A DNA stretch of 61,036 nt from an uncultured Lachnospiraceae bacterium (lineage in GTDB: Bacteria > Bacillota > Clostridia > Lachnospirales > Lachnospiraceae), in the NCBI GenBank assembly GCA_965645705.1, contig CBFFWQ010000011.1, positions 64,001 to 125,036 of the forward strand, in the 5' to 3' direction. Positions 9,031 through 59,796 of this stretch are shown piece by piece. The number at the start of each line of letters is the position of its first letter. The first letter of the stretch is position 1. The position numbers and the translations under genes were made by a program. A model generated the notes under the pieces. It had not been told where the DNA came from and ran no database searches. It saw only the letters and a list, made by a program, of their open reading frames with translations.

Positions 9031-9057
9031 AATAATGGAGATGATACGAAAATACGG

Positions 9058-10939
9058 GGCTGTCGCACTAAGAATTAGTGTGTAGCTCCTTTTTTTTGAA
9101 AAAAAAGACTGTCAGACCTAGAAAAAATCTGACATTTTTGTAAAATATAAGTATGCAATTATTAAATATTTTACAAAAAAATTATAACCTAAATCAGAGT
9201 GGATATCAACTAAAACTTCCACTCAATCTTGAAATTTTAATTCCAGAAGATGATTCTGTGCGGTTACTAAGTCAGTTTGTGGAGGCAATGGATTTGACTG
9301 ACTTATATTCTACTTATGAAAGAATAAATTTAGTATCGCCAAGAACACTTCTTAAAATTGTCCTTTACTCTTATATGAATGGGGATTATTCTTCCCGTTC
9401 TATGGAGTTAAACGGTAAAAGAGATATTAATTTTATGTTTCTTTTAGAAGGTATGCCAGCACCTGATCACTCTACTTTTGCACGGTTTCGAAGCATTCAT
9501 TTTGCACCTTGCTCCAAACGTATTCTTGCAGAAATGTCGAATGCACTTTTTGATCTTGGCGAAATTTCTGGAGAAACTGTTTTTATTGATGGCACAAAGA
9601 TCGAAGCTTGTGCAAATAAATACACTTTTGTCTGGAAGAAAGCAGTCACAAAAAATCAAGCAAAACTTTTGATAAAACTGGCTAATTTTGTGGCAGAATG
9701 TGAACAGCTTTATGAAATAAAAATTGTGCATGGAGATACTATAAAAATGAAACACGTTAAGAAACTCCGAAAGAAACTGTATGCTTTAAAACAAAAGGAA
9801 CAGGTTGTTTTTGTTCATGGTATTGGGAAACGAAAAACTCCACTTCAAAAGAGCATAGAAACACTAGAAAACTACTTAGACAGACTCAAAAAATATAATC
9901 AGGAAATTTATATCTGTGGAAAAAGAAACAGCTATTCTAAAACAGATCACGATGCTACTTTCATGCGGATGAAAGAAGATGCTATGGGAAATGGGCAGCT
10001 AAAACCAGCATACAATCTTCAACACGGTGTAGACTCAGAATATATTTCCTGGGTTACGATTGGACCACAACCAACAGACACAACGACACTCATTCCTTTT
10101 TTAAAAGAGGCAGAAGAATATCTGAAATTTAAGTATAAAAATATCACTACGGACGCTGGGTATGAGAGTGAAGAAAACTATCACTTTTTGGAAACAAATG
10201 GACAGCTTTCCTATATCAAACCCACAAACTATGAGAGTTCCAAAACTCGTAAGTATAAAAATGATATTGGAAAAATGGAAACTATGGAGTATGATGCGGA
10301 ATCTGACAGTTATACTTGTAAAAACAACAAAAAACTGATGGTAGACCATATCCAACATTCGAAAACAAAAACAGGCTATCGCAGTGAAAAAACGATTTAC
10401 AAGTGTGAAGACTGCACTGGTTGTCCCTATAAAAAAGATTGCATCAAAGGAAACAACTGGAAAACACCTCTGGAAGAAAGAACCAAAACGCTACAAGTTG
10501 CCAAAACATTTTTGAAATACAGAGAGGAAGACTTCGAACGGATTCGTTCGGAAGAAGGAACTCTTTTTCGAACAAATCGAAGTATTCAAGTAGAAGGGTC
10601 TTTTGGCGATATCAAACAAGATATGCAGTTTCGGAGATATCTAAGCAAAGGGAACTCGAATGTGCTTGCAGAAAGCATCCTACTTGCTATGGCAAGGAAT
10701 CTAAAAAAACTCCATAACAAAATTCAAAAAGGTAACACGGGAATGCATTTATTTCCACTAAAAAGTGCCTAAATTTTGACCTTTTAAAAAATTTTTTTGA
10801 GCCATGGGAGATGGCTTATTAAAGTACGTCTTTTTTGTAAAATATTAACAGAAAATAGGAATTTTTTAAAAGTTATCCTAAAAAAGAGTAAACATAAGGC
10901 TGTTCTTTTACGATTTCTGAATCGTTAAAGCGACAGCCC
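9058..10939 (+). mobile_element. Insertion sequence of the IS1182/IS5 superfamily (~1.9 kb)
   Basis: Terminal inverted repeats GGGCTGTCGC at 9058-9067 and, reverse-complemented, at 10930-10939. It carries a single transposase ORF. It is the only plus-strand gene in the window and contains no copy of the window-wide CTAAAG motif. Confidence 0.75.
9153..10772 (+). CDS. DDE transposase, IS1182-family-like
   Basis: 539 aa. N-terminal motif PDHSTFARFRS (DUF772-type HTH of IS5/IS1182 transposases). C-terminal DDE region with Cys-rich zinc finger CKNNKK...CEDCTGCPYKKDC. Confidence 0.85.
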   Translation: MQLLNILQKNYNLNQSGYQLKLPLNLEILIPEDDSVRLLSQFVEAMDLTDLYSTYERINLVSPRTLLKIVLYSYMNGDYSSRSMELNGKRDINFMFLLEGMPAPDHSTFARFRSIHFAPCSKRILAEMSNALFDLGEISGETVFIDGTKIEACANKYTFVWKKAVTKNQAKLLIKLANFVAECEQLYEIKIVHGDTIKMKHVKKLRKKLYALKQKEQVVFVHGIGKRKTPLQKSIETLENYLDRLKKYNQEIYICGKRNSYSKTDHDATFMRMKEDAMGNGQLKPAYNLQHGVDSEYISWVTIGPQPTDTTTLIPFLKEAEEYLKFKYKNITTDAGYESEENYHFLETNGQLSYIKPTNYESSKTRKYKNDIGKMETMEYDAESDSYTCKNNKKLMVDHIQHSKTKTGYRSEKTIYKCEDCTGCPYKKDCIKGNNWKTPLEERTKTLQVAKTFLKYREEDFERIRSEEGTLFRTNRSIQVEGSFGDIKQDMQFRRYLSKGNSNVLAESILLAMARNLKKLHNKIQKGNTGMHLFPLKSA

Positions 10940-11044
10940 TTCTTACCATTCAATTTAAACCAAACTAAAGGAATGATGATTAGCACTACAAATACAAAAT
11001 CGACTTTCACAACAAACTCAAGAAAATAACGCACAAGCAATCAC

Positions 11045-13936: not shown

Positions 13937-14013
13937 AAACCAAACTCATGAGCTTTCAATATTTTAAGAAAATACTGCTGTCGCAAACGAATCTAAAGGC
14001 TCATGAATCTAAA

Positions 14014-19316: not shown

Positions 19317-20556
19317 GACTGACCACCGCCTCTTCTTCTATTGGTGTCATCTCGGACAAACCAAGTTGATAAACTACATACCGACCATCAAAATCAAGCA
19401 TTTCTTCATCTGTACGGACGGCACGTTCCTCTGGAAACTCTACTACAATCCTTACATACTCACCTATACTATCCTCTAATACATTCACTAAATTGGTTCG
19501 CATTTCTAAGCTTTGCCCAACACCTAAAGGAGTAGCAGGTGTCACATAATCATACAATTGATAATCTTTCTCTATTCTTGCTGTAGAAGCTCTAGTTGTA
19601 CACTTTGTATCATTCAAACTTGATACAAGATAAAAACTAAGTTCAGGGTTCGCTTTATTTTTTGTAAAGGAATCAAATCTTGTTACACCACGATTATTAT
19701 CTGGCTTCTTCAAGTATTTAAAAACATAATTAATGTCAAATACACGAACTCTGTCATCTACATAATAAGCTTCCGTATCTGCACGAAGATTATCCTCTAC
19801 CCTAGTAAAAGAGAACTGATATTCTGCACCACAAATAGAAACCAGCTTCACTAAATCATTTGCAGTACGCAACTTCGCTCCCTGCTTTGCATACTTTAAA
19901 GGTGTAATGTCGTAATAAATAGTGTCAAAGTTTACATCAGAAGCGGTATCTACTAATTCGATTTTCAATCTATAATCACCATGAATAGAAGATGTATAAG
20001 GTTGCATACCAACTTCAACTGCTTTTATTTTATCTCCTTGATAGACTTCTAGCTGTTCATCAAACCCACTCCAACCAACACTGCACGCTGAACCAACAAC
20101 ATCACCTAAAGAATCAACTAGCGAAATCGTTGGAACTATTTTTGCAGTTAGACGATTAGATAAGTAATCACCAACATCAAAAACCAAGTTAAAAGAATAA
20201 CTATTTCTAACTCCATAACGAATTGCACTAGAATTATACCAATCCCAAATACCCAACAACTCTACTTGTCGAATACCTAAAGTACCATAGTAAACTCCAT
20301 CTGCAATCAAGGCAGCACTTTCTCCCCATGAATAAATAGGTTCTTCATACGGTGATACACTCAATTCGTCCTTTACCTCATAAGATAATTTAATAGAATT
20401 CTGTTCTGCATCTAAAGCTGAGTCAGAATCACTATTACTACTGTCGTTCTGAACAATTGGAGTATCGACCTGCTTACCCCCAGAGTTAAAAAAAGAACAG
20501 CCTTCCAAAGAAGAAAGACTGCTCAATACAATTAGAAAAAATAATTTACGCTTCAT
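19306..20556 (-). CDS. Lipoprotein
   Basis: Lipobox SLEGCS; 416 aa. Confidence 0.55.
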   Translation of the reverse strand: MKRKLFFLIVLSSLSSLEGCSFFNSGGKQVDTPIVQNDSSNSDSDSALDAEQNSIKLSYEVKDELSVSPYEEPIYSWGESAALIADGVYYGTLGIRQVELLGIWDWYNSSAIRYGVRNSYSFNLVFDVGDYLSNRLTAKIVPTISLVDSLGDVVGSACSVGWSGFDEQLEVYQGDKIKAVEVGMQPYTSSIHGDYRLKIELVDTASDVNFDTIYYDITPLKYAKQGAKLRTANDLVKLVSICGAEYQFSFTRVEDNLRADTEAYYVDDRVRVFDINYVFKYLKKPDNNRGVTRFDSFTKNKANPELSFYLVSSLNDTKCTTRASTARIEKDYQLYDYVTPATPLGVGQSLEMRTNLVNVLEDSIGEYVRIVVEFPEERAVRTDEEMLDFDGRYVVYQLGLSEMTPIEEEAVVSLAD

Positions 20557-20557
20557 C

Positions 20558-21403
20558 CTAGCTCACCACACTTACTGTATACACACCATCACTTACACTA
20601 CACGATAAAGGAGTTCCTGAATTACCTACTTGAGCAAACCATTCTAAATCTGACAAAGTAGAAAATTCCTCAATAATCTGCTGCACACCTAGCTCTAAGT
20701 GATAGTCTTGTGTCTTGAATACTAATTTCGTAATATCATTTTTTACCCAATTCAAATCTAAAGGGATGCTATAACAAGCAAATAATCCTTTTGATGCAAA
20801 AGAAAGTAAAGAATCCCCCACCGTATACACTGGCTTTAAACTATCAATAAACTGTACTGCATACTCTCCATAACTAAAGAGTGGATCAAATGAAGATGCA
20901 ACACTACTGGAAAGAATACTCTCCAAGACTCCTATACACGTCACCTGCTCAGAATCTAAAGGGAGATTTAATGGTTTCTCTTCAAAAGCGGAAACTGGAA
21001 TAGCAAGGTAACCATCAGTCAAAACACTGTCATGCGTTACTGGTACTGGTCGTTCAAAAGCAACTTCCGTTACATAAGGCTGATTATTGCTTACATCAGT
21101 AAGATAAGCGAGATACAATAAATGCATCAAATTTACACTATACTTTTCACTATTACCCTTAAAATACCTATTGCAAAACAGAATTTCATCTACGCAAAAC
21201 CAACCATTCTGTATCATAGTAGTTGCTAATGCAATTATTTGTGGATCATTACACAAGATAGATTCCATAAATTCTTGTGCTGTTTCATTTGAATACTCTG
21301 GTCTATCACAATTGACAAGACCTAATTTATTTGCAGACAAAGGAGAACGTCTTAGAATAATTCCCTCAAAATCTTTTATATTTTCACGCATACTTCTATC
21401 CAC
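20558..21403 (-). CDS. Hypothetical protein
   Basis: 281 aa; its stop abuts the start of the next gene. Confidence 0.5.
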   Translation of the reverse strand: MDRSMRENIKDFEGIILRRSPLSANKLGLVNCDRPEYSNETAQEFMESILCNDPQIIALATTMIQNGWFCVDEILFCNRYFKGNSEKYSVNLMHLLYLAYLTDVSNNQPYVTEVAFERPVPVTHDSVLTDGYLAIPVSAFEEKPLNLPLDSEQVTCIGVLESILSSSVASSFDPLFSYGEYAVQFIDSLKPVYTVGDSLLSFASKGLFACYSIPLDLNWVKNDITKLVFKTQDYHLELGVQQIIEEFSTLSDLEWFAQVGNSGTPLSCSVSDGVYTVSVVS

Positions 21404-21549
21404 CTTTCATGATGTGATTAAAAACCGGCAGAATAAGAAATTTCTGATAACAATGCACGCAATCCAACTACCAAAATAAAAAAGAATAAACCTGTTCGGA
21501 AATTTCGCTGGTGATAATACAGTGCTTAAAAATACACCAAAGCAATGAA

Positions 21550-21650
21550 TTTCTATACTCACGAACTTTTAGATTTGCCAGTAAAATACTTATTATAGTT
21601 GGTATATCTTTTTAGTTAGCGGTAAATTTTACAGCTCGTGAGTATAGCGA
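21550..21650 (-). promoter_or_regulatory. Inverted pair of conserved 12-13-mers (TATACTCACGAAC ... CTCGTGAGTATAG) upstream of 20558..21403
   Basis: Arms at ~21553-21565 and ~21637-21650; same element as at 32205-32282 and 59797-59850. Confidence 0.4.
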
Positions 21651-21651
21651 A

Positions 21652-21993
21652 TCAACTAAAGTGGTAAACAAAAAATTCCTTGATACTCTGTAAGACATTT
21701 TTACCACTATCCTCAAAACCTTTCAGTGGAGTGTCATCGTTCATGCCCTGTCCATAATCTTTTTCTACGAAAGAGTCTTCTGCCTTATCCAAACCAGAAT
21801 CAATTTTATTATTTATTTTCTCTCTAAGACCATTAATTTTCTTCTCACTATCATTAGAAAGATTTACGTCCACATTCTTTTCTGCCATTGTTTTTGTTTC
21901 TTCTGCAGAATCAAAAACACCCTGATCAGCACAACCTGTCAATAAAACTAAAAACAATACAGAACCTAAAGCTAATCTTCTCATACACTCCAC
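21652..21993 (-). CDS. Small lipoprotein
   Basis: Lipobox LLTGCADQ. Confidence 0.45.
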   Translation of the reverse strand: MECMRRLALGSVLFLVLLTGCADQGVFDSAEETKTMAEKNVDVNLSNDSEKKINGLREKINNKIDSGLDKAEDSFVEKDYGQGMNDDTPLKGFEDSGKNVLQSIKEFFVYHFS

Positions 21994-22042
21994 CTACCTT
22001 GAAACAGAATTTACAAATCTAAAGAATCATAAGTATAGCCTA

Positions 22043-22405
22043 CTACTTAATCACACCTTGCTCTATCATCTTTGCAATTTTCTCATCGGTAACAGGTTTT
22101 ATTAATTTATAGTCAACGGGATAAGTCGGACCTCCAACTACGAAAATTGCCTTCTCTTTTTCACAAATCGCAATACGCTTTGTATTAATATTTGCCTCAC
22201 TAAGAGCCATCAATATTGCTAATTGTTCATATTTAGTAGATGAAAGCTCATAATCATAAAGACAAGCTGATACTGCGTTATTAGCGACAAAATCAGCGAT
22301 CTCATGAATGTTATCTGTTACAATGCCAACCTCTATACCAGCGGCTTCTAAATTAGTCTGTAACACGAATGCGTTAAGACCTCGTTTCTGATAAACTGCT
22401 ACCAT
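22043..22405 (-). CDS. Receiver (CheY-like)-domain-like protein, possibly a pseudo-receiver
   Basis: C-terminal DYKLIKPVTDEKIAKMIEQ resembles the receiver alpha5 motif (D-YL-KP). No N-terminal acidic pair is present. Confidence 0.3.
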   Translation of the reverse strand: MVAVYQKRGLNAFVLQTNLEAAGIEVGIVTDNIHEIADFVANNAVSACLYDYELSSTKYEQLAILMALSEANINTKRIAICEKEKAIFVVGGPTYPVDYKLIKPVTDEKIAKMIEQGVIK

Positions 22406-22491
22406 AGTAACCCTTCTTTCTTTTTATTATTTGTTTACTGTTGCATTCACGAACCTTAAAATTTGCTAAACAAAAAGCTCGTACCTAAAGC

Positions 22492-23202
22492 CTATATCCT
22501 GATGCCATAAAGATCTTGAGCAAAAACTCTAAGGATAGGACTTCTTCTTAATTTAACAAGACTACGATGTACACGAAGTCTTGCTGCATCATACGTAATC
22601 CCAACTCTTTCTGCAATTACAGAAAATTCTACTCCTTCCACAAATCTTGCATACACCATAGCATAATTTTCAGGAGTTAATAATCTGCGTGCCTCTTCCC
22701 AAATCTGATTCTTGTACAATTGGCATTCTATGGCATCTAATTCTTCCATACCACACGACTTCACCACTGAATACTCTGTCTTGAAACAATCATCTATAGG
22801 TAGAATCTTTATCTTAGGTAATTCATCTCGTGCAAAAGTACTCGCTTCTCTCTCTGGTACATGAAATTGGCAAGTTGATTTCATTCTAAAATTATAAACA
22901 TAGCGTTTCATCCAGAACCTAAAGTAAGTAATAAATTTAATTCCTAAACCAAATTTAAAGCGTCTCACTGCACTAACCAATGCTAAATAAGAAACCTGCA
23001 GATAATCCTCATAATCCCTTGCATGATAATCAACTAATAGACCATACTCCTTAATACAATTTACAATAAAACCTAAATTCTGTCTATACAATAAAACAAG
23101 ATCCGTTGCTACTGCACGATTATCACTGGATTGAATTTTCCACACCAATTCAGCATTTTTATCAACGGTTTCCAAATTATTCTTTATCATTCTGACCTCC
23201 AT
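22492..23202 (-). CDS. RNA polymerase sigma-70 family factor
   Basis: Region-2-like YLQVSYLALVSAVRRFKF...FITYFRFWMKRYVYNF and region-4 HTH YAMVYARFVEGVEFSVIAERVGITYDAARLRVHRSLVKLRR. Confidence 0.6.
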   Translation of the reverse strand: MEVRMIKNNLETVDKNAELVWKIQSSDNRAVATDLVLLYRQNLGFIVNCIKEYGLLVDYHARDYEDYLQVSYLALVSAVRRFKFGLGIKFITYFRFWMKRYVYNFRMKSTCQFHVPEREASTFARDELPKIKILPIDDCFKTEYSVVKSCGMEELDAIECQLYKNQIWEEARRLLTPENYAMVYARFVEGVEFSVIAERVGITYDAARLRVHRSLVKLRRSPILRVFAQDLYGIRI

Positions 23203-23309
23203 ATTCCAGAAGGGTCACTTGGCAACTAACTAATACTGCCAAAATTTGGAAACCGTTCAATCTTTTGATAAAGTTTTTTAAAAATTATGATAGTTTGTGA
23301 AATTGGTGA

Positions 23310-23750
23310 CTATAAATACTGATTATCATAATACTGATTGTAAAACACTTGCACCTTTTCATAATCAATAAAAGAACCATCTTCTGTAAAAACAAGATTT
23401 ATATCGAAATTTTTTATGCACATCAATAAGGTTAGCTGCTTTACTCCATTTGGGGGAGCATCTGTATTAACTTCATTAATCAAATCAACTTTATGATCTA
23501 AAGCGAATACAGCGGCTTCTACACTTTCCGTACTTAAACGCTCTATCTTCAATCTTTTGTAAATTGCAGGACCAAATGATTTAATTCTATTTAATAGACT
23601 TTTACGACGCTCAAATTTATCACAATGACCAGAATCTAAAGGATTGACCACCCTGTTATTGGATTCATCAGCTTGAGCATTCTCTGCAAACAATTTACTG
23701 CCAACTTCAACAAAGGCATCACTTTCTTTTGCTTTATTCATAGTCCTCAT
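23310..23750 (-). CDS. Hypothetical protein
   Basis: 146-aa ORF. Confidence 0.45.
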   Translation of the reverse strand: MRTMNKAKESDAFVEVGSKLFAENAQADESNNRVVNPLDSGHCDKFERRKSLLNRIKSFGPAIYKRLKIERLSTESVEAAVFALDHKVDLINEVNTDAPPNGVKQLTLLMCIKNFDINLVFTEDGSFIDYEKVQVFYNQYYDNQYL

Positions 23751-23756
23751 GCCTTT

Positions 23757-26048
23757 CTATCGAATATCAATAATAAGATCCTCAGCACTCGTCTCGCATA
23801 AAAATACAAAATGCTTTTGTGATTGATTTTTATAAGCATCCAGCCTGCGGTAAAGTGCTTCAAACGCTCTCAAAAATTGTGAGAAGCTTCCATTAAAAAT
23901 AACACTACCAGCCTGCTGTACAATAATAGTAGTATCAGAAGTTTCCTTATATAAATTAAGCTGTGGTTTCTCTATACCTAAATGTTGTAAGAATTGTTTA
24001 CATACCATAATGAAAAATCTTGCATACATCTGCTTACTATTAGGCATAAATTTAAACCTAAGTAGCACACTTGCTACCTGAAAGAAACTTGTCTTTGTAA
24101 TCATCTCTTGATTAGAATCCCTAAAATAATAAAAAATACTGTCAAGTTTACTTGACAGCCCCTCACTCTTTACAAGTTGTTTTAATTTTTCTCTAAGCAT
24201 TCTTCCTGATTCTCCGTTCTTACTAATTCCAGGACCTTCCTTATCTTCAATAAGATCAGAGTCATTACCTTTCACTGGAGTCGTACTATCCAGTAAATAA
24301 TACAAATTATAAGAATCTAAATGTGACAATTCGATTGAAAATTTATGCTGACCTAAATCTTTACACCATGCCTGTAACGAACACAAAAGCTTGTCATTCT
24401 GTTGAATAGACTTAACACAATCTCTTGCATTACAAGCAATAGAATAACCATTTGAACTATCTAAAGGTTCAACGAAAAGCTCTCTACCAGAAGCTAAACA
24501 CCCTTTTAAAAACTTTTTTGAATAATCGTCTACGTTCATTATAAGCTCTAAATAATGCAAGGTTAAAAATGGCTTTTTATTCACAACAATAGAAACTATC
24601 TCCATGTCATAATTTCTGTTGCTTCTTACAGTAAATCCATTATTATTAGCTAAATAAATCAAGTAATCATGAACTAATTGTTTGATTGGAGGAAGTGTTT
24701 CATAACTTCCTACAAACGTAATTATTTGCAGATTTTTCTTCTTTGTTGTAGCTAAATCAATCTGCAAATACATGAAAATATCCTGATAAGAAATTCTATC
24801 TGCTATATAAGAATCATACACACTCTCAATAAGATTAGTATGTAAATCGTCTATATCCAAAATCAAATTCTCATGCTGAACTAAAGCATTAATCGTTGTG
24901 ACTTTATAACTATGTCTACTTAAGAACTCAAAATCGAAATCCTTGGCTAAGACAATAGTACTTAACAAATCAATACTCTTTGAATGTTCTGACAACATCC
25001 CCTGTGTTACATCGCCAAATGCGTAATCATTCTCCAATAACTTTTGCATTAATTCAGGGTATACACAAACATCCTGATCAAAACTTTCTCCATTTAATTT
25101 ACGATTTACATACGATTTAAATGTTTCAAAATTTTTGTAATAATTCAACACCTGCACTATATCAAAGCAATTGCTTGATTCTAAACTAAAGATCAGGTCA
25201 TTATAACTTGGACTAAGAGAATACTTAAAATAATGCTGCTTTTCAAAACATGGTGATTGATAATGAGATAAAAAGAAATCTATATCTTCCAAAGTAATTG
25301 GTCTTTTATCCAGCACGCAAAGTTTGATTTCATCCATACTTAAATCAAATATCTTTTCGTAAACAATATCATCTGCAACAATCTTATATTTAAGAAGTAA
25401 ATACTCTTTCAATACACGCTTTTCTACAGCTTCAAAAGTGTCCCCTTCCCAAAATGCAATCGCTCTTGAATTAGGATAAAGTTGCTGATAAACGCTAATC
25501 AAGAATTCCTCAAATTCGTAATCATTTGCCGAATCTAAAGGAACTCCCTTTGAAAATGCAAAAGCTATAAAATCATTTTCTAGGTCGGTTCTATCCCATG
25601 AATCATAATATTCTCCTGGATCTTCTTCTTCTCCTACTCTTAAATTAAAATTTAATACAAGTGGTTCTTGCATAAAATAACTAAAATTAGCTGTATTACC
25701 ATTTGCTGGAGTATGATCACCATCAAAAGTATCTATAGAAGATGCAGGTTCATCCTGCATACTGACACTTTGTAAATCATTACTTCCGTATCTTTCACTA
25801 AGATTACTTGCAAAATTTCCCCACTTTTTTGCTGCACTACTTGAACGACTGGAATTAGATTTCTTTCGCTGCAACTGTTCTGTAGAAATTCTACTCTTAC
25901 TAATACCCTTAATAGCACTATCCCAAGCCGATTCGCTACTTTTGGAGGATCCTGGAAGACTATACAATGAATCCTCTGTATCATCTTCTATTGTAGGGAC
26001 AAATGCATTAGACATATTTGCTCTTTCAATTCCACCTGGCATAATCAA
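23757..26048 (-). CDS. Large hypothetical protein (763 aa)
   Basis: Long uninterrupted ORF. Confidence 0.55.
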   Translation of the reverse strand: MIMPGGIERANMSNAFVPTIEDDTEDSLYSLPGSSKSSESAWDSAIKGISKSRISTEQLQRKKSNSSRSSSAAKKWGNFASNLSERYGSNDLQSVSMQDEPASSIDTFDGDHTPANGNTANFSYFMQEPLVLNFNLRVGEEEDPGEYYDSWDRTDLENDFIAFAFSKGVPLDSANDYEFEEFLISVYQQLYPNSRAIAFWEGDTFEAVEKRVLKEYLLLKYKIVADDIVYEKIFDLSMDEIKLCVLDKRPITLEDIDFFLSHYQSPCFEKQHYFKYSLSPSYNDLIFSLESSNCFDIVQVLNYYKNFETFKSYVNRKLNGESFDQDVCVYPELMQKLLENDYAFGDVTQGMLSEHSKSIDLLSTIVLAKDFDFEFLSRHSYKVTTINALVQHENLILDIDDLHTNLIESVYDSYIADRISYQDIFMYLQIDLATTKKKNLQIITFVGSYETLPPIKQLVHDYLIYLANNNGFTVRSNRNYDMEIVSIVVNKKPFLTLHYLELIMNVDDYSKKFLKGCLASGRELFVEPLDSSNGYSIACNARDCVKSIQQNDKLLCSLQAWCKDLGQHKFSIELSHLDSYNLYYLLDSTTPVKGNDSDLIEDKEGPGISKNGESGRMLREKLKQLVKSEGLSSKLDSIFYYFRDSNQEMITKTSFFQVASVLLRFKFMPNSKQMYARFFIMVCKQFLQHLGIEKPQLNLYKETSDTTIIVQQAGSVIFNGSFSQFLRAFEALYRRLDAYKNQSQKHFVFLCETSAEDLIIDIR

Positions 26049-28754: not shown

Positions 28755-29123
28755 TAAATCCCTGCCTTTCCCAAATATTAAAAATTTAAAACCAGACTCA
28801 CTAGCTGTAAAATTTACTACTAACTGAAAAGATATACCAACTATAACAAATATTTATTGGCAAATCTAAAACTCGTGAGTATATGCTAAACTTTCTTAAT
28901 GCATTTATTGCAAAAAAATAAAAGAGGTCAGTTAAGACTTCTTCTAATAACTTTCAAACTATTGTTTCAATCCACTCAGCAGTTAGGAGCAAGACAATTA
29001 CGTGGATTGCTTCATGACAAAGGATACCGCTTTCGCTCCGCCAGCTACTACCGTTACACTTGTTCCTAGCAATTCCTCCACCTACCTCAGAGGAAGAGGA
29101 ATCCTTACTGTTAATTGTTGAAT

Positions 29124-29668
29124 TTATTTTCTCCGATTATTTCCTAAAAAAGCATTTACTGGTTTTGCATCTAAAGAACTTGCATCAGTGTCACTTGTCT
29201 TTTTCTTCTTAGAAAAAATCTTATCATAATATTTTCTACTTGCTTCTGAATAATTATACTCTTGTTCTGCAATCTCATGTGCAGTAGTCACAGAATAATC
29301 GGGATTTTGCAACAGTATGGTAATCTCATACAACTCATGTTGGAGCATAAGTACATCATGAGGTTCTATATGTGCAAAATTTTTTCTGTCAATCGTCCCC
29401 ATGACTCAGCCATAGCATAATCAGGATCAAACGTTCTAAACCTACCGTTCCTACGCCAATGACAATTTTCAAAAATATAATCCCTTACAATCATAATCTG
29501 TTCAATAGAAAAATCGGTACGATCTGCAATTTTCGCACAATCAATAAATTTATTCCTGTTTCTAAACTGTTCGTATATTTTTTTGCAATATCTAGTGACT
29601 CAGGATCTCTATCAGGATCGTGAGCACCACTTTGCAAAAAATTCCTTTCATTCTCTTGCATAATCTAC
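29124..29668 (-). pseudogene. Possible frameshifted gene (three frame segments)
   Basis: The minus strand reads MQENERNFLQSGAHDPDRDPES...LNRL*, then in another frame IDCAKIADRTDFSIEQIMIVRDYIFENCHWRRNGRFRTFDPDYAMAESW, then the annotated ORF MGTIDRKNFAHIEPHD.... The junctions are in A/T runs. Confidence 0.3.
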
Positions 29669-29901
29669 CCCCACATTACTGAATAAATTTCTGGCAAAAA
29701 ACCGTCTTCTTCCATCGCAAGTAATAAATTTCCAGTAGCTTTAAAAACCTCCCAATCACGGTCATCTGGTGAAATCTCCCATCTTCTTTCCTTTCTAAAA
29801 ATTTTTACATCAAAATACCTGTTTGTTTTTGGATGATACGCCTTTGCCCAAATAAAATCATCATCATACCTAATTTCCATAAAATCAACCATTTTACACA
29901 C
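29665..29901 (-). CDS. Small hypothetical protein (78 aa)
   Basis: ORF MCKMVDFMEIRYDDDFIWAKAYHPK...; a degenerate internally deleted second copy follows at ~29960-30150. Confidence 0.4.
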   Translation of the reverse strand: MCKMVDFMEIRYDDDFIWAKAYHPKTNRYFDVKIFRKERRWEISPDDRDWEVFKATGNLLLAMEEDGFLPEIYSVMWG

Positions 29902-29959
29902 TCCTTTACTGTTCTAATTTTTAAACTATTCTTATGAAATCTTTTACAATACGTAAGGA

Positions 29960-30150
29960 TTCAGGATTTTCCCCAGAATTTCAAACACCACTTTGCAACA
30001 AATTACCCCCACATTACTGAATACTCTTCTGGCAAAAAATCATCTTCTTTCCTTTCTAAAAATTTTTACATCAAAATACCTATTTATTCTTGAATGATAC
30101 GCCTTTGCTCAAATAAAATCATCATACCTAATTTCTGTAAAATTAACCAT
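29960..30150 (-). repeat. Degenerate, internally deleted tandem duplicate of the 29600-29905 unit
   Basis: Near-identical strings (caccactttgcaa...cccccacattactgaata...ctttctaaaaatttttacatcaaaatacct...gatgatacgcctttgc...aaataaaatcatcat...cctaatttc) with a ~70-bp deletion and point changes. Confidence 0.6.
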
Positions 30151-30384
30151 AGTAAAAACTCATTTACTATTTTAATGGATCTCTCATATAATGAAGACGT
30201 AATTTACCTCTTGTTCTTGCATCATACTGCATACCACCTATTAGTATCTCTACATCAGCAGAATCATTATTAGGTTCAATTTATTTTAATACTTTTTTAC
30301 ATTAAAATAAATACTTTGCTTAATAATTTTTCTTTACAAAATAATCTATAATCTAAAGTGTGGAGTTCTGTTATAAAAACCACA

Positions 30385-32204: not shown

Positions 32205-32282
32205 AAGAACTGTACTCACGAACCACAAAACTAAAGAGCAAACAACTTACTTGATAGAACTAAAGGCTCGTGAGTACGACTG
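32205..32282 (-). promoter_or_regulatory. Inverted pair GTACTCACGAACC ... GGCTCGTGAGTAC upstream of 31796..32176
   Basis: 13-bp arms about 45 bp apart; three CTAAAG copies between and around the arms. Confidence 0.4.
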
Positions 32283-35428: not shown

Positions 35429-36094
35429 CTAATCATCCGACAAAAGTTCATCCAAATCTAAAGCGGACTTTTTCGGACTCTCAGCAAAACTAAAGGCGGA
35501 TGATGCCTCCGCCTTAATAGGCACACTCTTCTTGAACACTTCCTTATAAATCTCTTGTACTGACACATCATGCTGCATAAGCGAAATCATCTTCTTTATC
35601 TCCTGCAACGAACACTTTTTAGCAATCATCAATTTGCTTAATCCTACAAAACTGTCTGGTACATACAAATCGTAAGCATCTGTTTTAGCGACATCAAGAT
35701 GTGGCAACTTTTCATAAGAATCAATTTCAGGTTCTTTCTGATAAATCGTGTTGTTCCCTACGAATGCCTGCATACTAGGGTCACTCTTTAGAAGCTTCTC
35801 AGCTTCTGCATAAAAATTTGTAGTATTGCCGAGCTTCTCCGATTTATACATAGAAACAAACTTGATATAATTACCAGATCTTCCACAAGAAAAACAATGG
35901 AATCCATGAGTGGTGTCATTAAAAGAACACGAAGCATTCTCATCTAAATGAAAGGGACAACGTACCCAAAAATCGCTTCCTCTTTCATTGTAGCCAGACA
36001 ATAAATTATTCTCTCCGAGAAACTTCTTAAAACTATAGTCTGGGGAGTTATTTACAAATCGAATTACATTGTCAAGCACTTCTTTATTTATCAT
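35429..36094 (-). CDS. CHC2 zinc-finger protein (DnaG-primase-type zinc-binding domain)
   Basis: CPFHLDENASCSFNDTTHGFHCFSCGRSGNY matches the CPFHxExTPSF...CFGCGxxG primase zinc finger. No TOPRIM is evident in the 221 aa. Confidence 0.55.
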   Translation of the reverse strand: MINKEVLDNVIRFVNNSPDYSFKKFLGENNLLSGYNERGSDFWVRCPFHLDENASCSFNDTTHGFHCFSCGRSGNYIKFVSMYKSEKLGNTTNFYAEAEKLLKSDPSMQAFVGNNTIYQKEPEIDSYEKLPHLDVAKTDAYDLYVPDSFVGLSKLMIAKKCSLQEIKKMISLMQHDVSVQEIYKEVFKKSVPIKAEASSAFSFAESPKKSALDLDELLSDD

Positions 36095-36266
36095 AGAAAC
36101 ACCTGCCTATACTATCAACTAAAAGATTAGTAGTTTCCACTCTACGAAAACTAAAGCTTGTAGATAAAAACAAAAAAGTTATTGTAATTTCGAAGTGCAA
36201 AATACAATAACCTTAAAAATCGTTATACCTACTAAGTATAACGATCTATTACTACAATTCTAAACC

Positions 36267-38114
36267 CTATCTCGTTATTTTGGTGCGGTGTTCATTTGCA
36301 AACCGCTTCGCATCATCTAAAGTGAAGAGACTACCGATGTTATCCAAAATATATAAAAACTCTTCCCTATTTTTAGGACTCATGTTCTCTGCTGATTTAC
36401 GAAACATATAAATCCTCTTCTCATCTTTTGTCATGTTTTTAATTAATTCTTTCTCTTGTGCTTCACGTATCTTATCCTCGGAAGCTGATGCATTAAGATT
36501 AATAAGCAAACTTCTTCTAATTGGTTCAAGTGTTGGATTAATCAATTTACCTGTTTCAAAATCTTTTTTACTTCGTATCAGCACTTCACAATGCATCACA
36601 CAATCTGCATCAATAGTAAACTCTGCAGAAATATCTATAGAACCTTTTGGCACAGCAGGAACTTTATCAATCACTAACTGACCGACACGATTATAACCAC
36701 CGATACCACACGAAGACTGCTGATACAGATCCAGAATAATTAAATCTTGATCATCATAAGAATTTGTAAACGATTCCATAACGGAAGCTGGAATAGTGGA
36801 ATTCTTACTAAAGATAGGCTGCACTTTACCATCAACGTAAATACCGATTGTCAAAGGTAATACATCATGTATTATTATATCAGTATCACCATACAAAATA
36901 CCCTTAGACATAATACCAGCACCACGAGCGACTGGTTCATACTCAACAGAACTGTCATCTACAATAATTTCATACTTCTTTAAATCTCTGGCAAGCCACT
37001 CTTTCAAAGCATAATAACGACACGAATTGCCAACGAGAATCAGGGAATAAATTGGGACACGACTATCCATAATAACATTCTCTGTAATTTTTAACAGACG
37101 CTTATACAATGGAACAAATGCTTTCTCTACATCGTCTGTAGTTATTTTAACTTCAAACTCTGTCGCATCTTCCCTTAATTGACCTTCATACCAGATTGGT
37201 ATTTTACTAAGTATAACCTGTCCTTTACTACAATGCTTATAAGACTCTGCTTTAGAAATAAGGCTTGCTCTACAAGCTTGATCTAAATCCTCTACATCGA
37301 CACCTAAAGTCTGCAATTTCTCATACAAAATCTCCACAATACTTTTATCAAAGTCATCACCACCTAAAGCAGTATCACCATCAACGTTGATAGGCTCTAC
37401 TAACTTTGAGCCTTCTTTTAAATCTTCACACTCAATACCATACAAATCGTACAGTTCACGCAATAATCCAGTATCGGTTGCATGAACTAAAGATACATCA
37501 AAAGTACCACCACCAAAATCAAACACCAAATTATAAGAACTTCTCATTTGTGTTTCATCCAGATTATAGCACATGGCAGCAGAAGTAGGTTCTCGCAGAA
37601 TATACAAACAATTCATCCCAGCTAAAGCACAAGCTTTCTTGGTATTTTCAACACCTACGTTATCAAATTTAGCTGGGACTGTTACTACTACATCCCTAAC
37701 TTTTCCTTCATAACCTTTCGTTTGATCTGCAATTCCCTTTAAAATCATTGCAGAAACTTCTGTTGGTGTTTTTACAACACGCTCGCCATTATACTCGAAT
37801 ACTACCATTGCCGTAGGATCTTGCATCTTGCTCTTTACTGAAGTACATACATTTGGATTACCTTGATGGGCGTACTTATAAGCTTCATCACCAACTACCC
37901 AATTGTCACCGCCAAGCCACATAACTACTGACGGCATTGTTAATTTACCGCTCTTCAGCACTATGTTTTCAGCAGCATGATTCTTTAAACCGCAACTGAT
38001 AGAACTATTTGTAGTTCCTAAATCAATCCCAAATGGAATCGATTCCACTACATCTGACTTTTTACTTGATGCGGAAGATGTAAAAGCATCCACTTCTCTA
38101 GCATACTCTGACAT
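36267..38114 (-). CDS. Hsp70/DnaK-family ATPase, divergent
   Basis: GIDLGTTNSS; VVVTVPAKFDN...ILREPTSAAMCYNLD; FDFGGGTFDVSLV; ALGGDDFDKSIV; LILVGNSCRY. Start moved to MSEYAREV at 38114, preceded by AAAGGAGAA. Confidence 0.8.
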   Translation of the reverse strand: MSEYAREVDAFTSSASSKKSDVVESIPFGIDLGTTNSSISCGLKNHAAENIVLKSGKLTMPSVVMWLGGDNWVVGDEAYKYAHQGNPNVCTSVKSKMQDPTAMVVFEYNGERVVKTPTEVSAMILKGIADQTKGYEGKVRDVVVTVPAKFDNVGVENTKKACALAGMNCLYILREPTSAAMCYNLDETQMRSSYNLVFDFGGGTFDVSLVHATDTGLLRELYDLYGIECEDLKEGSKLVEPINVDGDTALGGDDFDKSIVEILYEKLQTLGVDVEDLDQACRASLISKAESYKHCSKGQVILSKIPIWYEGQLREDATEFEVKITTDDVEKAFVPLYKRLLKITENVIMDSRVPIYSLILVGNSCRYYALKEWLARDLKKYEIIVDDSSVEYEPVARGAGIMSKGILYGDTDIIIHDVLPLTIGIYVDGKVQPIFSKNSTIPASVMESFTNSYDDQDLIILDLYQQSSCGIGGYNRVGQLVIDKVPAVPKGSIDISAEFTIDADCVMHCEVLIRSKKDFETGKLINPTLEPIRRSLLINLNASASEDKIREAQEKELIKNMTKDEKRIYMFRKSAENMSPKNREEFLYILDNIGSLFTLDDAKRFANEHRTKITR

Positions 38115-38252
38115 AAACAAATTCTCCTTTCTTGAATGCAATAGAAACTGTACAAAAAATAAATTTATAAATGTAACAAAAATGAACCTTGTTACACCCA
38201 TACAATTAAAATAACCTAAAGCTTGAAAGTACATCAATGCCTACTTCAACTT

Positions 38253-38292
38253 AAAAACTGCTATGCTTTACGCACAGCAGTCCATAATTTAT
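38253..38292 (-). terminator. Putative terminator after the Fic gene
   Basis: On the minus strand CTGCTGTGC-loop-GCATAGCAG is followed by TTTTTAAG. Confidence 0.4.
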
Positions 38293-38346
38293 TGTCTTAT
38301 TAAAAAATTCTTTGTAAGTACACATAACTGTTAAATAAACAAACAT

Positions 38347-45750: not shown

Positions 45751-46281
45751 TTAATACAAATAATCAACATCTTCAATAAAATCAAGGCATTCACACTCCT
45801 TTATTTTACTAATACGACCATGACTTACTTCAAAAATCATAATAAACAGACGGTCAGGTTCTACACAATTGGACTCAATACGATACAATACGTACTTATC
45901 TGTAGCCTCTACTACATTAATTATACTCTTGTTTCCATAATACCGTACATACGTATACAACTGTCTATTCTCGTTATCAATCGTAAGACCAGCATAGGTA
46001 TCTTCATCCATAATCTGAGCAAGACGTTTTTGATTTTCTTGTACCTCATCTAAAGAATCGAAGTCATACATCAGCATAACCGCTTCTACACCTAAAGTTC
46101 TCTTCAAGGAAACACTTGCTGAACTCAAAAAAAATACCACAATAGAAATTAATGCAGCAACAAAAACAAGTACACGCAATCCAATCCACACCACGGACAC
46201 AACGGATACTTTAGAATCCGCAGAGAAATCATCATACTCTTCTTCACTCTTTGCCATGCTATCAATCCTTTGCAAAAGCAT
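45751..46281 (-). CDS. Membrane-anchored hypothetical protein
   Basis: TM helix plus a C-terminal domain. Confidence 0.45.
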   Translation of the reverse strand: MLLQRIDSMAKSEEEYDDFSADSKVSVVSVVWIGLRVLVFVAALISIVVFFLSSASVSLKRTLGVEAVMLMYDFDSLDEVQENQKRLAQIMDEDTYAGLTIDNENRQLYTYVRYYGNKSIINVVEATDKYVLYRIESNCVEPDRLFIMIFEVSHGRISKIKECECLDFIEDVDYLY

Positions 46282-46855
46282 TCACTGTTTCTGCTTGTTC
46301 TACAAAATCATCCTCAGATGCAGTCAACCGCTCATCCTTTGGGTTTGTGATACCCATCTTTAACATTTTCAGTGCTAAAGATTGTGGTAATTTCTGTACA
46401 CTGTACTTCAATTCACCTATTTTCTCATGAATAGTGTATTCACCTGAAACGCTATTAATAAGTGCCCGACCTAAAGTAGAGTCTGTAGAAAGAACCCTCT
46501 TCCGTGGATCAGGATCTCTAGTATCACCCTCATAGTCCACACGAAGAATACGTGGGACAAACTTAGGATCAACAGGGGACAACAAATTAATAAGTACAAA
46601 AGAGCCAACTCCTATTCTCGGACCATCATCAGGCGGAATAACTGTTAATGAAGGAGACGAAATTTTATTTCGTAATTCCTTAATACGAAATGACGTTTTA
46701 TCACACGCCATACGAGCTGCCTCATATTCAGCATTCTCAGATAAATCACCTAAAGCACGAGCTTCTTCCTTCTCAACATTCTGTTTTTCTAAAAGTTTCT
46801 CTAATTCGAATAATTCCGCCTTATACTCTTCCAACTGGAAAGATGAAATTTCCAT
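46262..46855 (-). CDS. greA: GreA/GreB-family transcript cleavage factor homolog
   Basis: ARALGDLSENAEYEAAR (E. coli GreA: AREHGDLKENAEYHAAR). C-terminal FKBP-like LSTDSTLGRALINSVSGEYTIH (GreA: VNSPIARGLIGKEEDDVV). Confidence 0.8.
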   Translation of the reverse strand: MEISSFQLEEYKAELFELEKLLEKQNVEKEEARALGDLSENAEYEAARMACDKTSFRIKELRNKISSPSLTVIPPDDGPRIGVGSFVLINLLSPVDPKFVPRILRVDYEGDTRDPDPRKRVLSTDSTLGRALINSVSGEYTIHEKIGELKYSVQKLPQSLALKMLKMGITNPKDERLTASEDDFVEQAETVNAFAKD

Positions 46856-59744: not shown

Positions 59745-59796
59745 ACAAGCTACCTGCTTTCTACTAATGCAAAAATTACTGAATGCAAACTATACT

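What the first reader, a model, noticed from the sequence alone, without database searches (positions are those of the whole stretch)
22043..23202. Element-encoded sigma factor followed by a receiver-like protein
A sigma-70 family protein (regions 2 and 4) is followed by a 120-aa protein resembling a receiver domain that lacks the N-terminal acidic pair. Together with the recurring intergenic 12-mer and the GreA homolog at 46262, this suggests the element carries its own transcription programme.
Basis: partly seen in the sequence, partly recalled or inferred. Interest (0 to 1): 0.55.

Follow-up and report, generated by a model that had tools for sequence, protein, structure and literature searches.

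The report
Orphan sigma factor with pseudo-receiver neighbour
A very large uncultivated extrachromosomal element encodes its own, highly divergent RNA-polymerase sigma factor, whose ribosome-binding site is predicted to be buried in an RNA fold, followed by a small, strongly conserved protein that weakly resembles a phosphorylation-dead receiver domain; this is a new member of a known kind, and the repeated 12-mer cited in support is a tiny transposon end, not a promoter.

Summary
Both genes are real, lie on the minus strand and are under purifying selection. The first (22492..23190/23202) is a sigma-70-family protein. Region 2 passes Pfam's threshold. Region 4, TIGR02937 and two PHROG sigma families agree below threshold, and the DNA-melting aromatic residues are kept. 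It fits no named subgroup and has only 5 relatives (clusters) among 5.8 billion proteins.

The 120-aa neighbour (22043..22405) matches the receiver profile weakly (E 6e-4, below threshold; profile-profile score above 150 shuffles). Its family conserves neither the acidic pair, the phospho-Asp, the Thr nor the Lys, so it is at best a pseudo-receiver. No kinase is encoded in the window. Functional coupling to sigma is inferred from proximity only.

The GreA homologue is real and keeps its catalytic acidic tip. The 12-mer TATACTCACGAG is the TA duplication plus inverted repeat of a ~91-bp MITE, not a promoter. No promoter consensus was found.

New observations:
- The sigma leader is predicted to fold into a conserved structure that buries the ribosome-binding site.
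- One lineage carries a frameshifted sigma.
- The element carries an unexplained polar 8-mer, CTTTAGNT (155 copies on one strand, about 1 on the other).

Verdict: an ordinary kind of feature in an unusual element. The claim that the element runs its own transcription programme is only partly supported.

The parts
22492..23202 (-). Sigma-70-family gene. The ORF from the first ATG is 236 aa. The likely true start is the second ATG at 23190 (232 aa), which lies 5 nt after GGAGG. The layout is an N-terminal helix like region 1.2/2.1, region 2 at residues 38-107, a poorly conserved 67-aa linker with no region 3 hit, region 4 at residues 175-219, and a conserved C-terminal tail ending FAxDLYGI.
   Evidence: Metagenome gene callers use the 232-aa start. 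dN/dS is 0.24.
22043..22405 (-). 120-aa alpha/beta protein that weakly resembles a receiver (CheY-like) domain. The residues needed for phosphorylation are missing or not conserved in its family, so it is a candidate pseudo-receiver.
   Evidence: dN/dS is 0.07-0.08. Family-invariant residues include C48, C81, E82, E84, G91, P93, P96, D98 and P104.
22406..22491 (-). 86-nt spacer between the two genes. It has no terminator-like site and no significant RNA structure. An RBS-like GAAAGAAGGG precedes the ATG of the 120-aa gene.
   Evidence: One search found no terminator in 21300-24000. One search gave z = +0.26. Alignment A2 shows the distal 60 nt conserved and a 43-nt indel in other lineages.
23243..23257 (-). 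5' arm (AACGGUUUCCAAAUU) of a 15-bp long-range helix in the sigma leader.
   Evidence: I9, 100% complementary; all cells paired across lineages, with one compensatory G-C to U-A change and two changes to G-U.
23164..23178 (-). 3' arm of the same helix. It lies in codons 5-9 of the 232-aa sigma reading frame (codons 9-13 of the 236-aa ORF).
23193..23217 (-). Local hairpin inside the 64-nt loop. An anti-SD (UGACC-C-UUC, 23209-23217) pairs with the Shine-Dalgarno region (GGAGGUCA, 23193-23200). The start codon follows at 23188-23190.
   Evidence: 8 pairs, invariant in all lineages. The distant relative L012 buries its GGAGG in a different 14-bp hairpin.
46262..46855 (-). GreA/GreB-family homologue (197 aa). 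The coiled-coil tip motif GDLSENAEY is intact and the C-terminal domain is divergent and extended.
21554..21646 (.). ~91-bp MITE copy with terminal inverted repeats TACTCACGAG, flanked by TA. This is the source of the 'recurring 12-mer'.
   Evidence: I1. L001-L006 carry a 54-nt internal deletion at this site. L009 lacks the element here.
28793..28883 (.). Second copy of the same MITE, in the opposite orientation relative to the genes.
   Evidence: L009 has the empty site GCA-TA-GTTTT, while L007 and the window are filled.

Best explanation
The window is part of a very large (contigs of 226-285 kb), uncultivated, low-GC extrachromosomal element. All its genes follow the G-rich strand. It also encodes replication proteins (DnaB-like, CHC2 zinc finger, DnaX), an Hsp70 and a Gre factor.

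Gene 22492..23190 encodes an orphan sigma-70-family protein. It has a working-looking region 2 (core-binding and melting residues kept) and a region 4 helix-turn-helix.

Inferred mechanism, sigma: it binds the host core RNA polymerase and directs it to element promoters. Those promoters are not yet identified.

Inferred mechanism, expression: a 15-bp helix between the leader and the first codons of the gene (5-9 from the 23190 start) closes a loop. Inside that loop the Shine-Dalgarno sequence pairs with an anti-SD. Translation should therefore need an opening event such as temperature, an RNA, a protein, or a ribosome arriving from the upstream gene. The fold is predicted from sequence and supported by conservation; its effect on translation is untested.

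Inferred mechanism, neighbour: the 120-aa protein downstream is probably co-transcribed. It is a strongly constrained alpha/beta protein with a degenerate receiver signature and cannot be phosphorylated in the canonical way. The most likely role is a protein-protein partner that modulates sigma or the polymerase, as anti-sigma, adaptor or co-factor. This last step is the weakest.
For: Sigma identity:
- (detailed in the observation check).
- Against SigA (8x6f), the stretch DYLQVSYLALVSAVRRFKFGLGIKFITYFRFWMKRYV aligns to [37 protein letters not shown].
- This keeps D..Q, KF.TY and the aromatic residues F and W.

Purifying selection: sigma dN/dS is 0.17-0.24 and the neighbour 0.07-0.18.

Orphan status:
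- 4-5 clusters in 5.8 billion proteins.
- No relatives in GTDB genomes or IMG/VR.
- At best 25-29% identity to sigma factors of Bacillus jumbo phages and a Tsukamurella plasmid.

Leader structure:
- MFE -37 kcal/mol, z = -3.04.
- RNAalifold finds the same fold.
- Helix 1 is 100% paired, with one compensatory and two wobble changes.
- L012 also sequesters its SD.

Co-transcription: same strand, 86-nt spacer, no terminator.

Receiver resemblance: (RpfC receiver in the same register).

Loss of phospho-chemistry in the family.

No HisKA, HATPase_c or Hpt domain in any window ORF of 90 aa or more.

Gene order 146 aa, sigma, 120 aa, lipoprotein, 281 aa is kept in a relative whose sigma is only 38% identical. 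A sigma C-terminus also precedes the 39%-identical homologue in L013.
Against: - No target promoters were found.
- Sigma is frameshifted by a 1-nt deletion in a T-run in L009, L010 and L011. The neighbour stays intact and constrained there. This argues that the neighbour does not depend strictly on sigma and that sigma is dispensable for carriage.
- Adjacency in L012 is part of whole-block synteny, so it is not independent evidence of coupling.
- The receiver assignment is below Pfam's threshold. It is weaker or absent for the two divergent family members. hhalign probability is only 4-8%. Both AlphaFold models were unusable.
- Covariation support for the leader rests on three lineages. 49 of 500 shuffles do as well.
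Confidence: 0.55

Rival explanations
1. Sigma is functional, but the 120-aa protein is an unrelated neighbour. The two are adjacent only because gene order in this element family is conserved as a whole.
For: - In L012 the entire five-gene block is syntenic.
- The neighbour is kept intact under strong constraint in the lineage whose sigma is frameshifted.
- The two proteins evolve at very different rates: 38% against 55% identity to L012.
Against: - The genes share a strand, with a short spacer and no terminator.
- In bacteria, small partner genes immediately downstream of sigma genes are the usual arrangement for sigma regulators (established knowledge).
Confidence: 0.3
2. The element is a jumbo phage. 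This is a middle- or late-gene sigma of a temporal cascade, with the small protein as a second subunit or co-activator, as in SPO1 gp34/gp33 or T4 gp55/gp33.
For: - The best annotated relatives of sigma are in 230-kb Bacillus phages.
- There are PHROG sigma hits.
- The Hsp70 matches a phage family, phrog_22485, at 2.6e-59.
- Cell-wall hydrolases and a >2200-aa protein lie upstream.
Against: - Eight of the ten proteins scanned against PHROGs had no hit, including five of 570 aa or more.
- The Pfam scans named no capsid, portal, terminase or T4SS protein in the window; the flanks (about 15 kb) carry only precomputed annotations, which show none either.
- No relative of sigma is present in IMG/VR.
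- The single-strand gene layout with strong GC skew fits a plasmid-like replichore.
Confidence: 0.2
3. The 120-aa protein is a true phospho-accepting receiver fed by a host histidine kinase, and it couples a host signal to sigma.
For: The window protein has Asp51 and Lys102-Pro at the positions of CheY Asp57 and Lys109-Pro110.
Against: - The Mg-binding acidic pair is missing (Q6 K7).
- The Thr/Ser87 position is Cys/Glu.
- Asp51 is Asn in P0022.
- Lys102 is Ser or Gln in P0022 and P0023.
- No kinase is encoded in the window.
Confidence: 0.05
4. The sigma gene is a decaying remnant with no present function.
For: A frameshifted allele is seen in three samples. The family is tiny.
Against: - dN/dS is 0.17-0.24.
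- The functional residues are kept.
- The regulatory leader is conserved.
- The intact gene is seen on contigs listed in 46 blocks of the collection.
Confidence: 0.05

Closest known systems
Alternative sigma factors encoded by phages, plasmids and giant extrachromosomal elements. Examples: Bacillus jumbo-phage sigma factors, SPO1 gp28/gp34, and the 'RpoS' annotated in Inocles (PMC12340149).
   Same: A mobile element supplies a sigma-70-family subunit for the host polymerase. The best annotated hits are such proteins. Inocles are low-GC giant circular elements with replichore-oriented genes, an S26 signal peptidase and a sigma annotated as RpoS.
   Different: - Identity to any annotated sigma is only 25-29%.
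- No subgroup HMM comes near its cut-off.
- The Inocle marker InoC was not seen in the window.
- The resident IS is closest to Lachnospiraceae, not Streptococcus.
- Membership in Inocles is untested.
Two-protein sigma systems: T4 gp55 + gp33, SPO1 gp34 + gp33, B. subtilis SigO + RsoA (from my own knowledge).
   Same: A divergent sigma gene sits next to a small gene whose product acts with it on the polymerase.
   Different: Those partners are not receiver-like. No interaction has been shown here.
Receiver-domain regulators of sigma factors: RssB (adaptor for sigma-S degradation) and PhyR (receiver plus sigma-like domain in the NepR/EcfG switch) (from my own knowledge).
   Same: A CheY-like domain controls a sigma factor through protein-protein contacts.
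   Different: Those receivers are phosphorylatable and have output domains. Here there is a stand-alone 120-aa domain without conserved phospho-chemistry.
Translational control of sigma mRNAs by structure: the rpoH thermosensor and the rpoS leader opened by small RNAs (from my own knowledge).
   Same: The sigma start region is buried by pairing between the leader and the early coding sequence.
   Different: There is no sequence or Rfam relationship. The trigger is unknown.
Tc1/mariner-IS630-type MITEs, such as pneumococcal RUP (from my own knowledge).
   Same: An element of about 91 bp with terminal inverted repeats, TA target duplication, both orientations, and filled and empty sites.
   Different: The sequence is unrelated to any repeat I could name. 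No matching transposase was seen in the window.

Membership tests
Sigma-70 family (PF04542/PF04545, TIGR02937) | Region 2 (core binding, -10 recognition and melting) | tested here: met
   PF04542 scores 27.5 bits against a cut-off of 24, residues 38-107. The alignment to SigA keeps D..Q, KF.TY, F and W.
Sigma-70 family (PF04542/PF04545, TIGR02937) | Region 4 helix-turn-helix (-35 recognition) | tested here: inconclusive
   PF04545 scores 18.7 and PF08281 17.6 bits, both below their cut-offs, at residues 175-219. TIGR02937 spans residues 38-220 at 39.3 bits against 42.9. phrog_1740 spans 62-219. This was the only part AlphaFold modelled with pLDDT 63-84.
Sigma-70 family (PF04542/PF04545, TIGR02937) | Binds core RNA polymerase and confers promoter-specific initiation | not testable with these tools
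   Needs biochemistry or transcript mapping.
ECF (group 4) sigma factors | Only sigma-2 and sigma-4 joined by a short linker, with no region 1.2 | tested here: not met
   The linker is 67 aa (residues 108-174). Residues 9-37 align to region 1.2/2.1 of SigA, RpoH and SigB models. TIGR02937 is below its cut-off.
Group 3 sigma factors (SigB/F/G, RpoH, FliA) | Region 3 present and a subgroup HMM score above its cut-off | tested here: not met
   No Sigma70_r3 hit. SigBFG scores 24 against 234, RpoH 25 against 323, SigF 20 against 372.
Response-regulator receiver domain (PF00072) | Profile score above the curated cut-off | tested here: not met
   20.3 bits against 30.2 (E 6.3e-4). P0023 gives E 0.095 and P0022 no hit.
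Response-regulator receiver domain (PF00072) | (beta-alpha)5 flavodoxin-like fold | tested here: inconclusive
   The AlphaFold model has pLDDT 41.6. hhalign is collinear over 101 columns and above a shuffle null (0 of 150), but probability is only 4-8%. PDB profile hits are all Rossmann-like or receiver chains at E 0.1-0.5.
Response-regulator receiver domain (PF00072) | Acidic pair after beta-1, phospho-Asp, Thr/Ser after beta-4, Lys after beta-5 | tested here: not met
   The pair is Q6 K7. Asp51 is present here but is Asn in P0022. The Thr position is Cys81/Glu82. Lys102 is Ser or Gln in relatives.
STAS anti-sigma antagonists (SpoIIAA/RsbV) | Sequence-profile similarity to the STAS domain | tested here: not met
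   hhalign aligns 18 columns, score 15.5, probability 0.6%. No Pfam STAS hit at E up to 1.
GreA/GreB transcript-cleavage factors (for 46262..46855) | N-terminal coiled coil with an acidic tip; C-terminal polymerase-binding domain | tested here: met
   PF03449 scores 44.1 bits against 24.5. The motif GDLSENAEY is present. The full-length GreA model spans residues 6-154 but scores 62 bits against 139, so the protein is divergent.
Inocle giant extrachromosomal elements (PMC12340149) | InoC marker gene (about 454 aa, PF13814 domain); circular genome of 245-395 kb | not tested
   No PF13814 hit among window proteins, but the window covers at most a quarter of the element. No Inocle sequences were available to compare. 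Shared style only: GC 32-36%, co-oriented genes, an S26 peptidase and a sigma.
MITE of the Tc1/mariner-IS630 type (for the 12-mer) | Short non-coding unit, terminal inverted repeats, TA duplication, insertion polymorphism | tested here: met
   Filled and empty sites at three loci, each with TA on both sides of TACTCAYGAG...CTCGTRAGTA. Both orientations occur.

The most novel reading that the evidence does not exclude
The sigma factor and the 120-aa pseudo-receiver form a new type of two-protein initiation switch. A phosphorylation-dead CheY-like domain would act as a dedicated anti-sigma or obligate co-sigma of an element-specific sigma, and synthesis of that sigma would be gated by an RNA structure. 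Together with the Gre factor, this would give a giant extrachromosomal element partial autonomy over host transcription.
Probability: 0.2. Interest if true: 0.6.

Novelty: new member of a known kind. Interest (0 to 1): 0.4.

Why it matters
Giant extrachromosomal elements of gut and oral bacteria are newly recognised and almost entirely unannotated. It is not known how they control their own genes.

This work gives three concrete handles for studying that control:
- a sigma factor that is clearly real, yet unrelated to any named subgroup;
- a predicted translational gate on its mRNA;
- a tightly conserved small partner candidate.

If the pseudo-receiver does bind sigma, it would add a new structural class of sigma regulator.

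The negative results also matter. The '12-mer' should not be used as a promoter model, and 'own transcription programme' is so far only a parts list.

Tried and rejected
- Nucleotide similarity. Megablast of 20000-26000 against plasmids and phages found nothing.
- Relatives of sigma. None in GTDB genomes or IMG/VR. One short extra contig came from JGI/ENA metagenomes. A profile search with alignment A5 added only the L012 protein.
- Relatives of the 120-aa protein. An exhaustive HMMER search of 1.84 billion representatives found only two more distant relatives and no canonical receivers at significant E.
- Structure prediction. AlphaFold on single sequences gave pLDDT 41 for both proteins. The models were not used and no fold search was run.
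- CTTTAG. I first dismissed it as codon usage (xCT TTA Gxx). Codon and synonymous shuffles overturned that.
- The 12-mer as an inverton. I considered an invertible promoter because one copy is reverse-complemented. I rejected this because the same locus is never seen in both orientations, whereas filled and empty sites with TA duplications are seen.
- Promoter discovery. Exact 5+5 bipartite enumeration with 13-19 nt spacers and k-mer enrichment gave only A/T-rich noise. There was a loose CTTTAG...GTATT association with variable spacing of 8-17 nt.
- RNA and defence libraries. Rfam gave no family for the leader. PADLOC gave no defence-system match beyond a sigma-like stretch of MzaA.
- STAS alternative for the 120-aa protein: rejected.
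- Hodor megaplasmids: rejected on GC content, 45-47% against 35%.
Full report
WHAT IS AT THE COORDINATES

Both ORFs of the finding lie on the minus strand, like every other gene of the window except one insertion sequence. The upstream ORF is 22492..23202 (236 aa). The downstream ORF is 22043..22405 (120 aa), 86 nt further on. The sequence GGAGG sits 5 nt before the second ATG (23190), and metagenome gene callers start there (232 aa). I take 23190 as the real start.

THE SIGMA FACTOR IS REAL

Four kinds of evidence agree.
- Pfam: Sigma70_r2 passes its curated cut-off (27.5 against 24 bits, residues 38-107). Two region 4 models match residues 175-219 just below cut-off.
- NCBIfam: the general sigma-70 model TIGR02937 covers residues 38-220 (E 5e-10, 39.3 against 42.9 bits).
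- PHROGs: two 'RNA polymerase sigma factor' families match (3e-13 and 3e-7).
- Solved structures: the best sequence matches are SigA and the ECF sigma SigH.

In the SigA alignment the core-binding and melting stretch is recognisable. DYLQ...AV..F....G.KF.TY.RFW aligns to DLIQ...AV..F....G.KF.TY.TWW.

The protein cannot be placed in a subgroup.
- Every subgroup model (SigB/F/G, RpoH, SigH, RpoD) scores 15-25 bits against cut-offs of 130-1000.
- There is no region 3 hit.
- The 67-aa linker and the N-terminal helix that aligns to region 1.2/2.1 do not fit the ECF pattern.

The family is tiny.
- There are four clusters of at least 84% identity in 5.8 billion proteins, and a fifth at 38%.
- Nothing was found in one genome per GTDB species or in IMG/VR.
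- Annotated records reach only 25-29% identity, to sigma factors of 230-kb Bacillus phages and of a Tsukamurella plasmid.

The gene is under purifying selection (dN/dS 0.17-0.24).

THE 120-AA PROTEIN

Evidence for a receiver-like fold:
- Its only family match is the receiver domain PF00072 at E 6.3e-4 (20.3 bits, cut-off 30.2). The alignment runs collinearly over profile positions 10-111 of 111.
- A profile of the family against PDB sequences gives only weak hits. All are doubly wound alpha/beta domains, including the RpfC receiver in the same register.
Asp51 falls on CheY Asp57 and Lys102-Pro on Lys109-Pro110.
- The hhalign score of 21.8 exceeds all 150 column-shuffled controls (12.2 +/- 2.4).
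- A STAS (SpoIIAA/RsbV) control finds nothing.

Evidence that limits the claim:
- hhalign probability is only 4-8%.
- The AlphaFold model made without an alignment is unusable (pLDDT 41.6).

I rate a receiver-like fold as likely, at roughly two in three, but not shown.

Whatever the fold, this is not a working phospho-receiver. An exhaustive search of 1.84 billion representatives found two more distant relatives, at 55% and 39% identity. The family alignment shows:
- no acidic pair (Q6 K7 here);
- Asp51 replaced by Asn in one relative;
- Cys81-Glu82 at the Thr/Ser position;
- Lys102 replaced by Ser or Gln.

The residues that are conserved are family-specific: C48, C81, E82, E84, G91, P93, P96, D98 and P104. 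No histidine kinase or Hpt domain occurs in any window ORF of 90 aa or more. The gene is among the most constrained of the neighbourhood (dN/dS 0.07-0.08).

ARE THE TWO LINKED?

For a link:
- They share a strand, with an 86-nt spacer. It has no terminator-like site and no significant structure, so co-transcription is likely.
- In L012 (JGI 3300010163) a sigma homologue of 38% identity directly precedes the 55%-identical homologue of the 120-aa protein.
- In L013 a sigma-like C-terminus (…FLKSVANDFYGI) precedes the 39% homologue.

Against treating that as independent evidence:
- L012 turned out to be a syntenic fragment of a divergent relative of the whole element. Both flanking genes on each side are also conserved in order, at 43-62% identity. 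Conserved adjacency here is general synteny.
- In one lineage (L009, L010, L011; three samples) sigma carries a 1-nt deletion in a T-run that splits it into ORFs of 92-93 aa and 139 aa. The 120-aa gene remains intact and constrained there.

The functional link is therefore an inference from arrangement, and I give it about one in three to one in two.

A STRUCTURED LEADER ON THE SIGMA mRNA

This is a new observation. A perfect 15-nt inverted repeat joins the leader (23243-23257) to the first codons of the sigma gene (23164-23178; codons 5-9 from the 23190 start, 9-13 of the 236-aa ORF). The 64 nt between the arms contain two features:
- a small hairpin;
- an 8-bp helix that pairs the Shine-Dalgarno GGAGG with an upstream CCUUC.

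The start codon follows directly after. The fold is the minimum-free-energy structure (-37 kcal/mol, z = -3.0 against shuffles). RNAalifold recovers it independently.

Across three lineages every substitution in the long helix keeps pairing. One is a compensatory G-C to U-A change and two are changes to G-U. G-U pairs favour an RNA helix over a DNA operator. Support is limited by the few lineages: 49 of 500 shuffles do as well. The distant relative L012 has a different leader, but it too buries GGAGG, in a 14-bp hairpin. No Rfam family matches.

The natural reading is that sigma translation is held off until the structure is opened. This resembles the rpoH and rpoS mRNAs in principle, not in sequence.

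THE 'RECURRING INTERGENIC 12-MER'

TATACTCACGAG always occurs as converging pairs. Examples are 21554/21646, 28793/28883, 32211/32278 and 59791/59840. Comparison with related contigs shows what it is.
- The ~91-bp unit is present at 21554-21646 in the window and absent from that site in L009.
- It is present in L009 at a site that is empty in the window (14893|14894).
- At 28793-28883 it is present in the window and L007 and absent in L009.
- Each time, TA lies on both sides of TACTCAYGAG…CTCGTRAGTA.
- Copies occur in both orientations relative to the genes.
- L001-L006 carry a 54-nt internal deletion at the first site.

This is a MITE with TA target duplication, not a promoter. An enumeration of bipartite motifs and k-mers in 30 intergenic regions (6.4 kb) gave no promoter consensus.

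AN UNEXPLAINED POLAR MOTIF

This was seen in passing and is more surprising than the finding itself. The 8-mer CTTTAGNT occurs 155 times on the coding, G-rich strand and about once on the other.
- Between genes, the CTTTAG core occurs 26 times against 3.4 +/- 1.9 expected, and never on the opposite strand.
- Inside genes, it occurs 142 times against 20.9 +/- 4.9 after codon shuffling and 34 +/- 4.5 after synonymous shuffling. Both codon choice and protein sequence have therefore been bent towards it.
- It is evenly spread at about one copy per 395 bp, with spacing CV 0.88.
- It is absent from the foreign IS.
- It is equally dense in the flanks beyond the window and in related lineages, and is still present in the distant L012.
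- It is not enriched in 234 kb of Clostridia DNA fetched around IS copies.

It is too dense, and too frequent inside genes, to be a promoter. Candidate explanations are a translocase-orienting or Chi-like signal, a primase start site on the lagging-strand template, or an RNA-level signal. I could not discriminate between them, because no gene of the element lies on the other strand in the DNA available.

THE ELEMENT

- Near-identical contigs reach 226-285 kb in many metagenomes.
- GC content is 32-39% (about 35% on average) with a constant skew of about -0.25 on the plus strand.
- The window encodes Hsp70, a DnaB-like helicase, two SNF2 helicases (one fused to a methylase), a CHC2 zinc-finger protein, Fic, NERD, PARG, a transglutaminase, an S26 signal peptidase, a PrsA-like rotamase, Big_2 surface proteins and cell-wall hydrolases. 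DnaX lies just outside the window.
- Pfam and the ten-protein PHROG scan named no capsid, terminase, relaxase or T4SS ATPase among the window proteins. About 15 kb of flank outside the window carries only precomputed Pfam annotations, and these show none either.
- In style it resembles the Inocles of oral streptococci: 32% GC, replichore-oriented genes, an S26 peptidase and a sigma annotated RpoS (PMC12340149). I could not test their marker gene.
- The resident IS1182-like transposase is closest (86-89% aa identity) to copies in gut Lachnospiraceae.
- It is not a 'Hodor' megaplasmid, which has 45-47% GC.

VERDICT

The parts of a transcription module exist and are maintained by selection. The promoter evidence was mistaken, no targets are known, and sigma is dispensable in one lineage.
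- An element-encoded alternative sigma is a known kind of thing. This one is an orphan member, with an interesting leader and a possible new type of partner.

Noticed in passing
Whole window, minus strand (e.g. 60904, 54052, 49738, 35403, 22490, 22024, 13998); also L001, L007, L009, L012, L094-L097: The polar 8-mer CTTTAGNT occurs 155 times on the coding, G-rich strand and about once on the other. Its CTTTAG core is about 7-fold enriched both between genes (26 against 3.4 expected) and inside genes (142 against 21-34 after codon or synonymous shuffles). It is evenly spaced at about one copy per 395 bp, absent from the IS, and shared by relatives. It is not a promoter. Its function is unknown; candidates are a KOPS/Chi-like signal, a primase site or an RNA signal.
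   Followed up: partly
window 23164-23257 (minus strand): The sigma leader is predicted to fold into a 15-bp helix between the 5' leader and the first codons of the gene (5-9 from the 23190 start). The helix encloses an anti-SD/SD hairpin. One compensatory change and two G-U changes across lineages keep it paired. A distant relative buries its SD in a different hairpin.
   Followed up: yes
L009 9726-10420, L010 7591-8288, L011 6089-6786 (equivalent to window ~22920): In one lineage, seen in three samples, the sigma gene has a 1-nt deletion in a T-run and is split into ORFs of 92-93 aa and 139 aa. The downstream 120-aa gene stays intact.
   Followed up: partly
window 21554-21646, 28793-28883; related units at 32211-32278, 59791-59840, 13941-14011; L009 18100-18194; L007 436-520: A MITE of about 91 bp with TACTCAYGAG terminal inverted repeats and TA target duplication. 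It occurs in both orientations, with filled and empty sites between lineages and an internal-deletion derivative in L001-L006.
   Followed up: yes
window 9031-11044 (transposase 9153..10772, plus strand): An IS1182-like insertion sequence (DUF772 + DDE_Tnp_1_6) is the only plus-strand gene. It truncates a gene that is 225 aa in L096 to 179 aa. Its closest copies (86-89% aa identity) are in gut Lachnospiraceae genomes, which hints at the host.
   Followed up: partly
window 22492-22540 (sigma C-terminus); L012 1150-1196; L013 2-82: A tail conserved beyond region 4.2 (…S..L..FA.DLYGI) is kept even at 38% overall identity. It could be a docking site for a partner.
   Followed up: no
window 46262-46855: The Gre-factor homologue keeps the catalytic tip motif GDLSENAEY but has a divergent, extended C-terminal domain (62 bits against a cut-off of 139 for GreA).
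   Followed up: partly
window-wide (50 minus-strand genes with their stop inside the window): TAG is the commonest stop codon (26 TAG, 18 TAA, 6 TGA). This is unusual for DNA of 35% GC. Three genes end in CTT TAG, inside the polar motif.
   Followed up: no
window 29403-30384; L001 3181-4005: A stretch with internal DNA repeats that encodes several small paralogous ORFs of 75-80 aa. Their number varies between lineages.
   Followed up: no
window 35429-41192 and L096 19148-20432: The element carries its own replication and chaperone set: a CHC2 zinc-finger protein, a divergent Hsp70 (PF00012, 7e-65), a DnaB-like helicase, a Fic protein, and DnaX just beyond the window.
   Followed up: no
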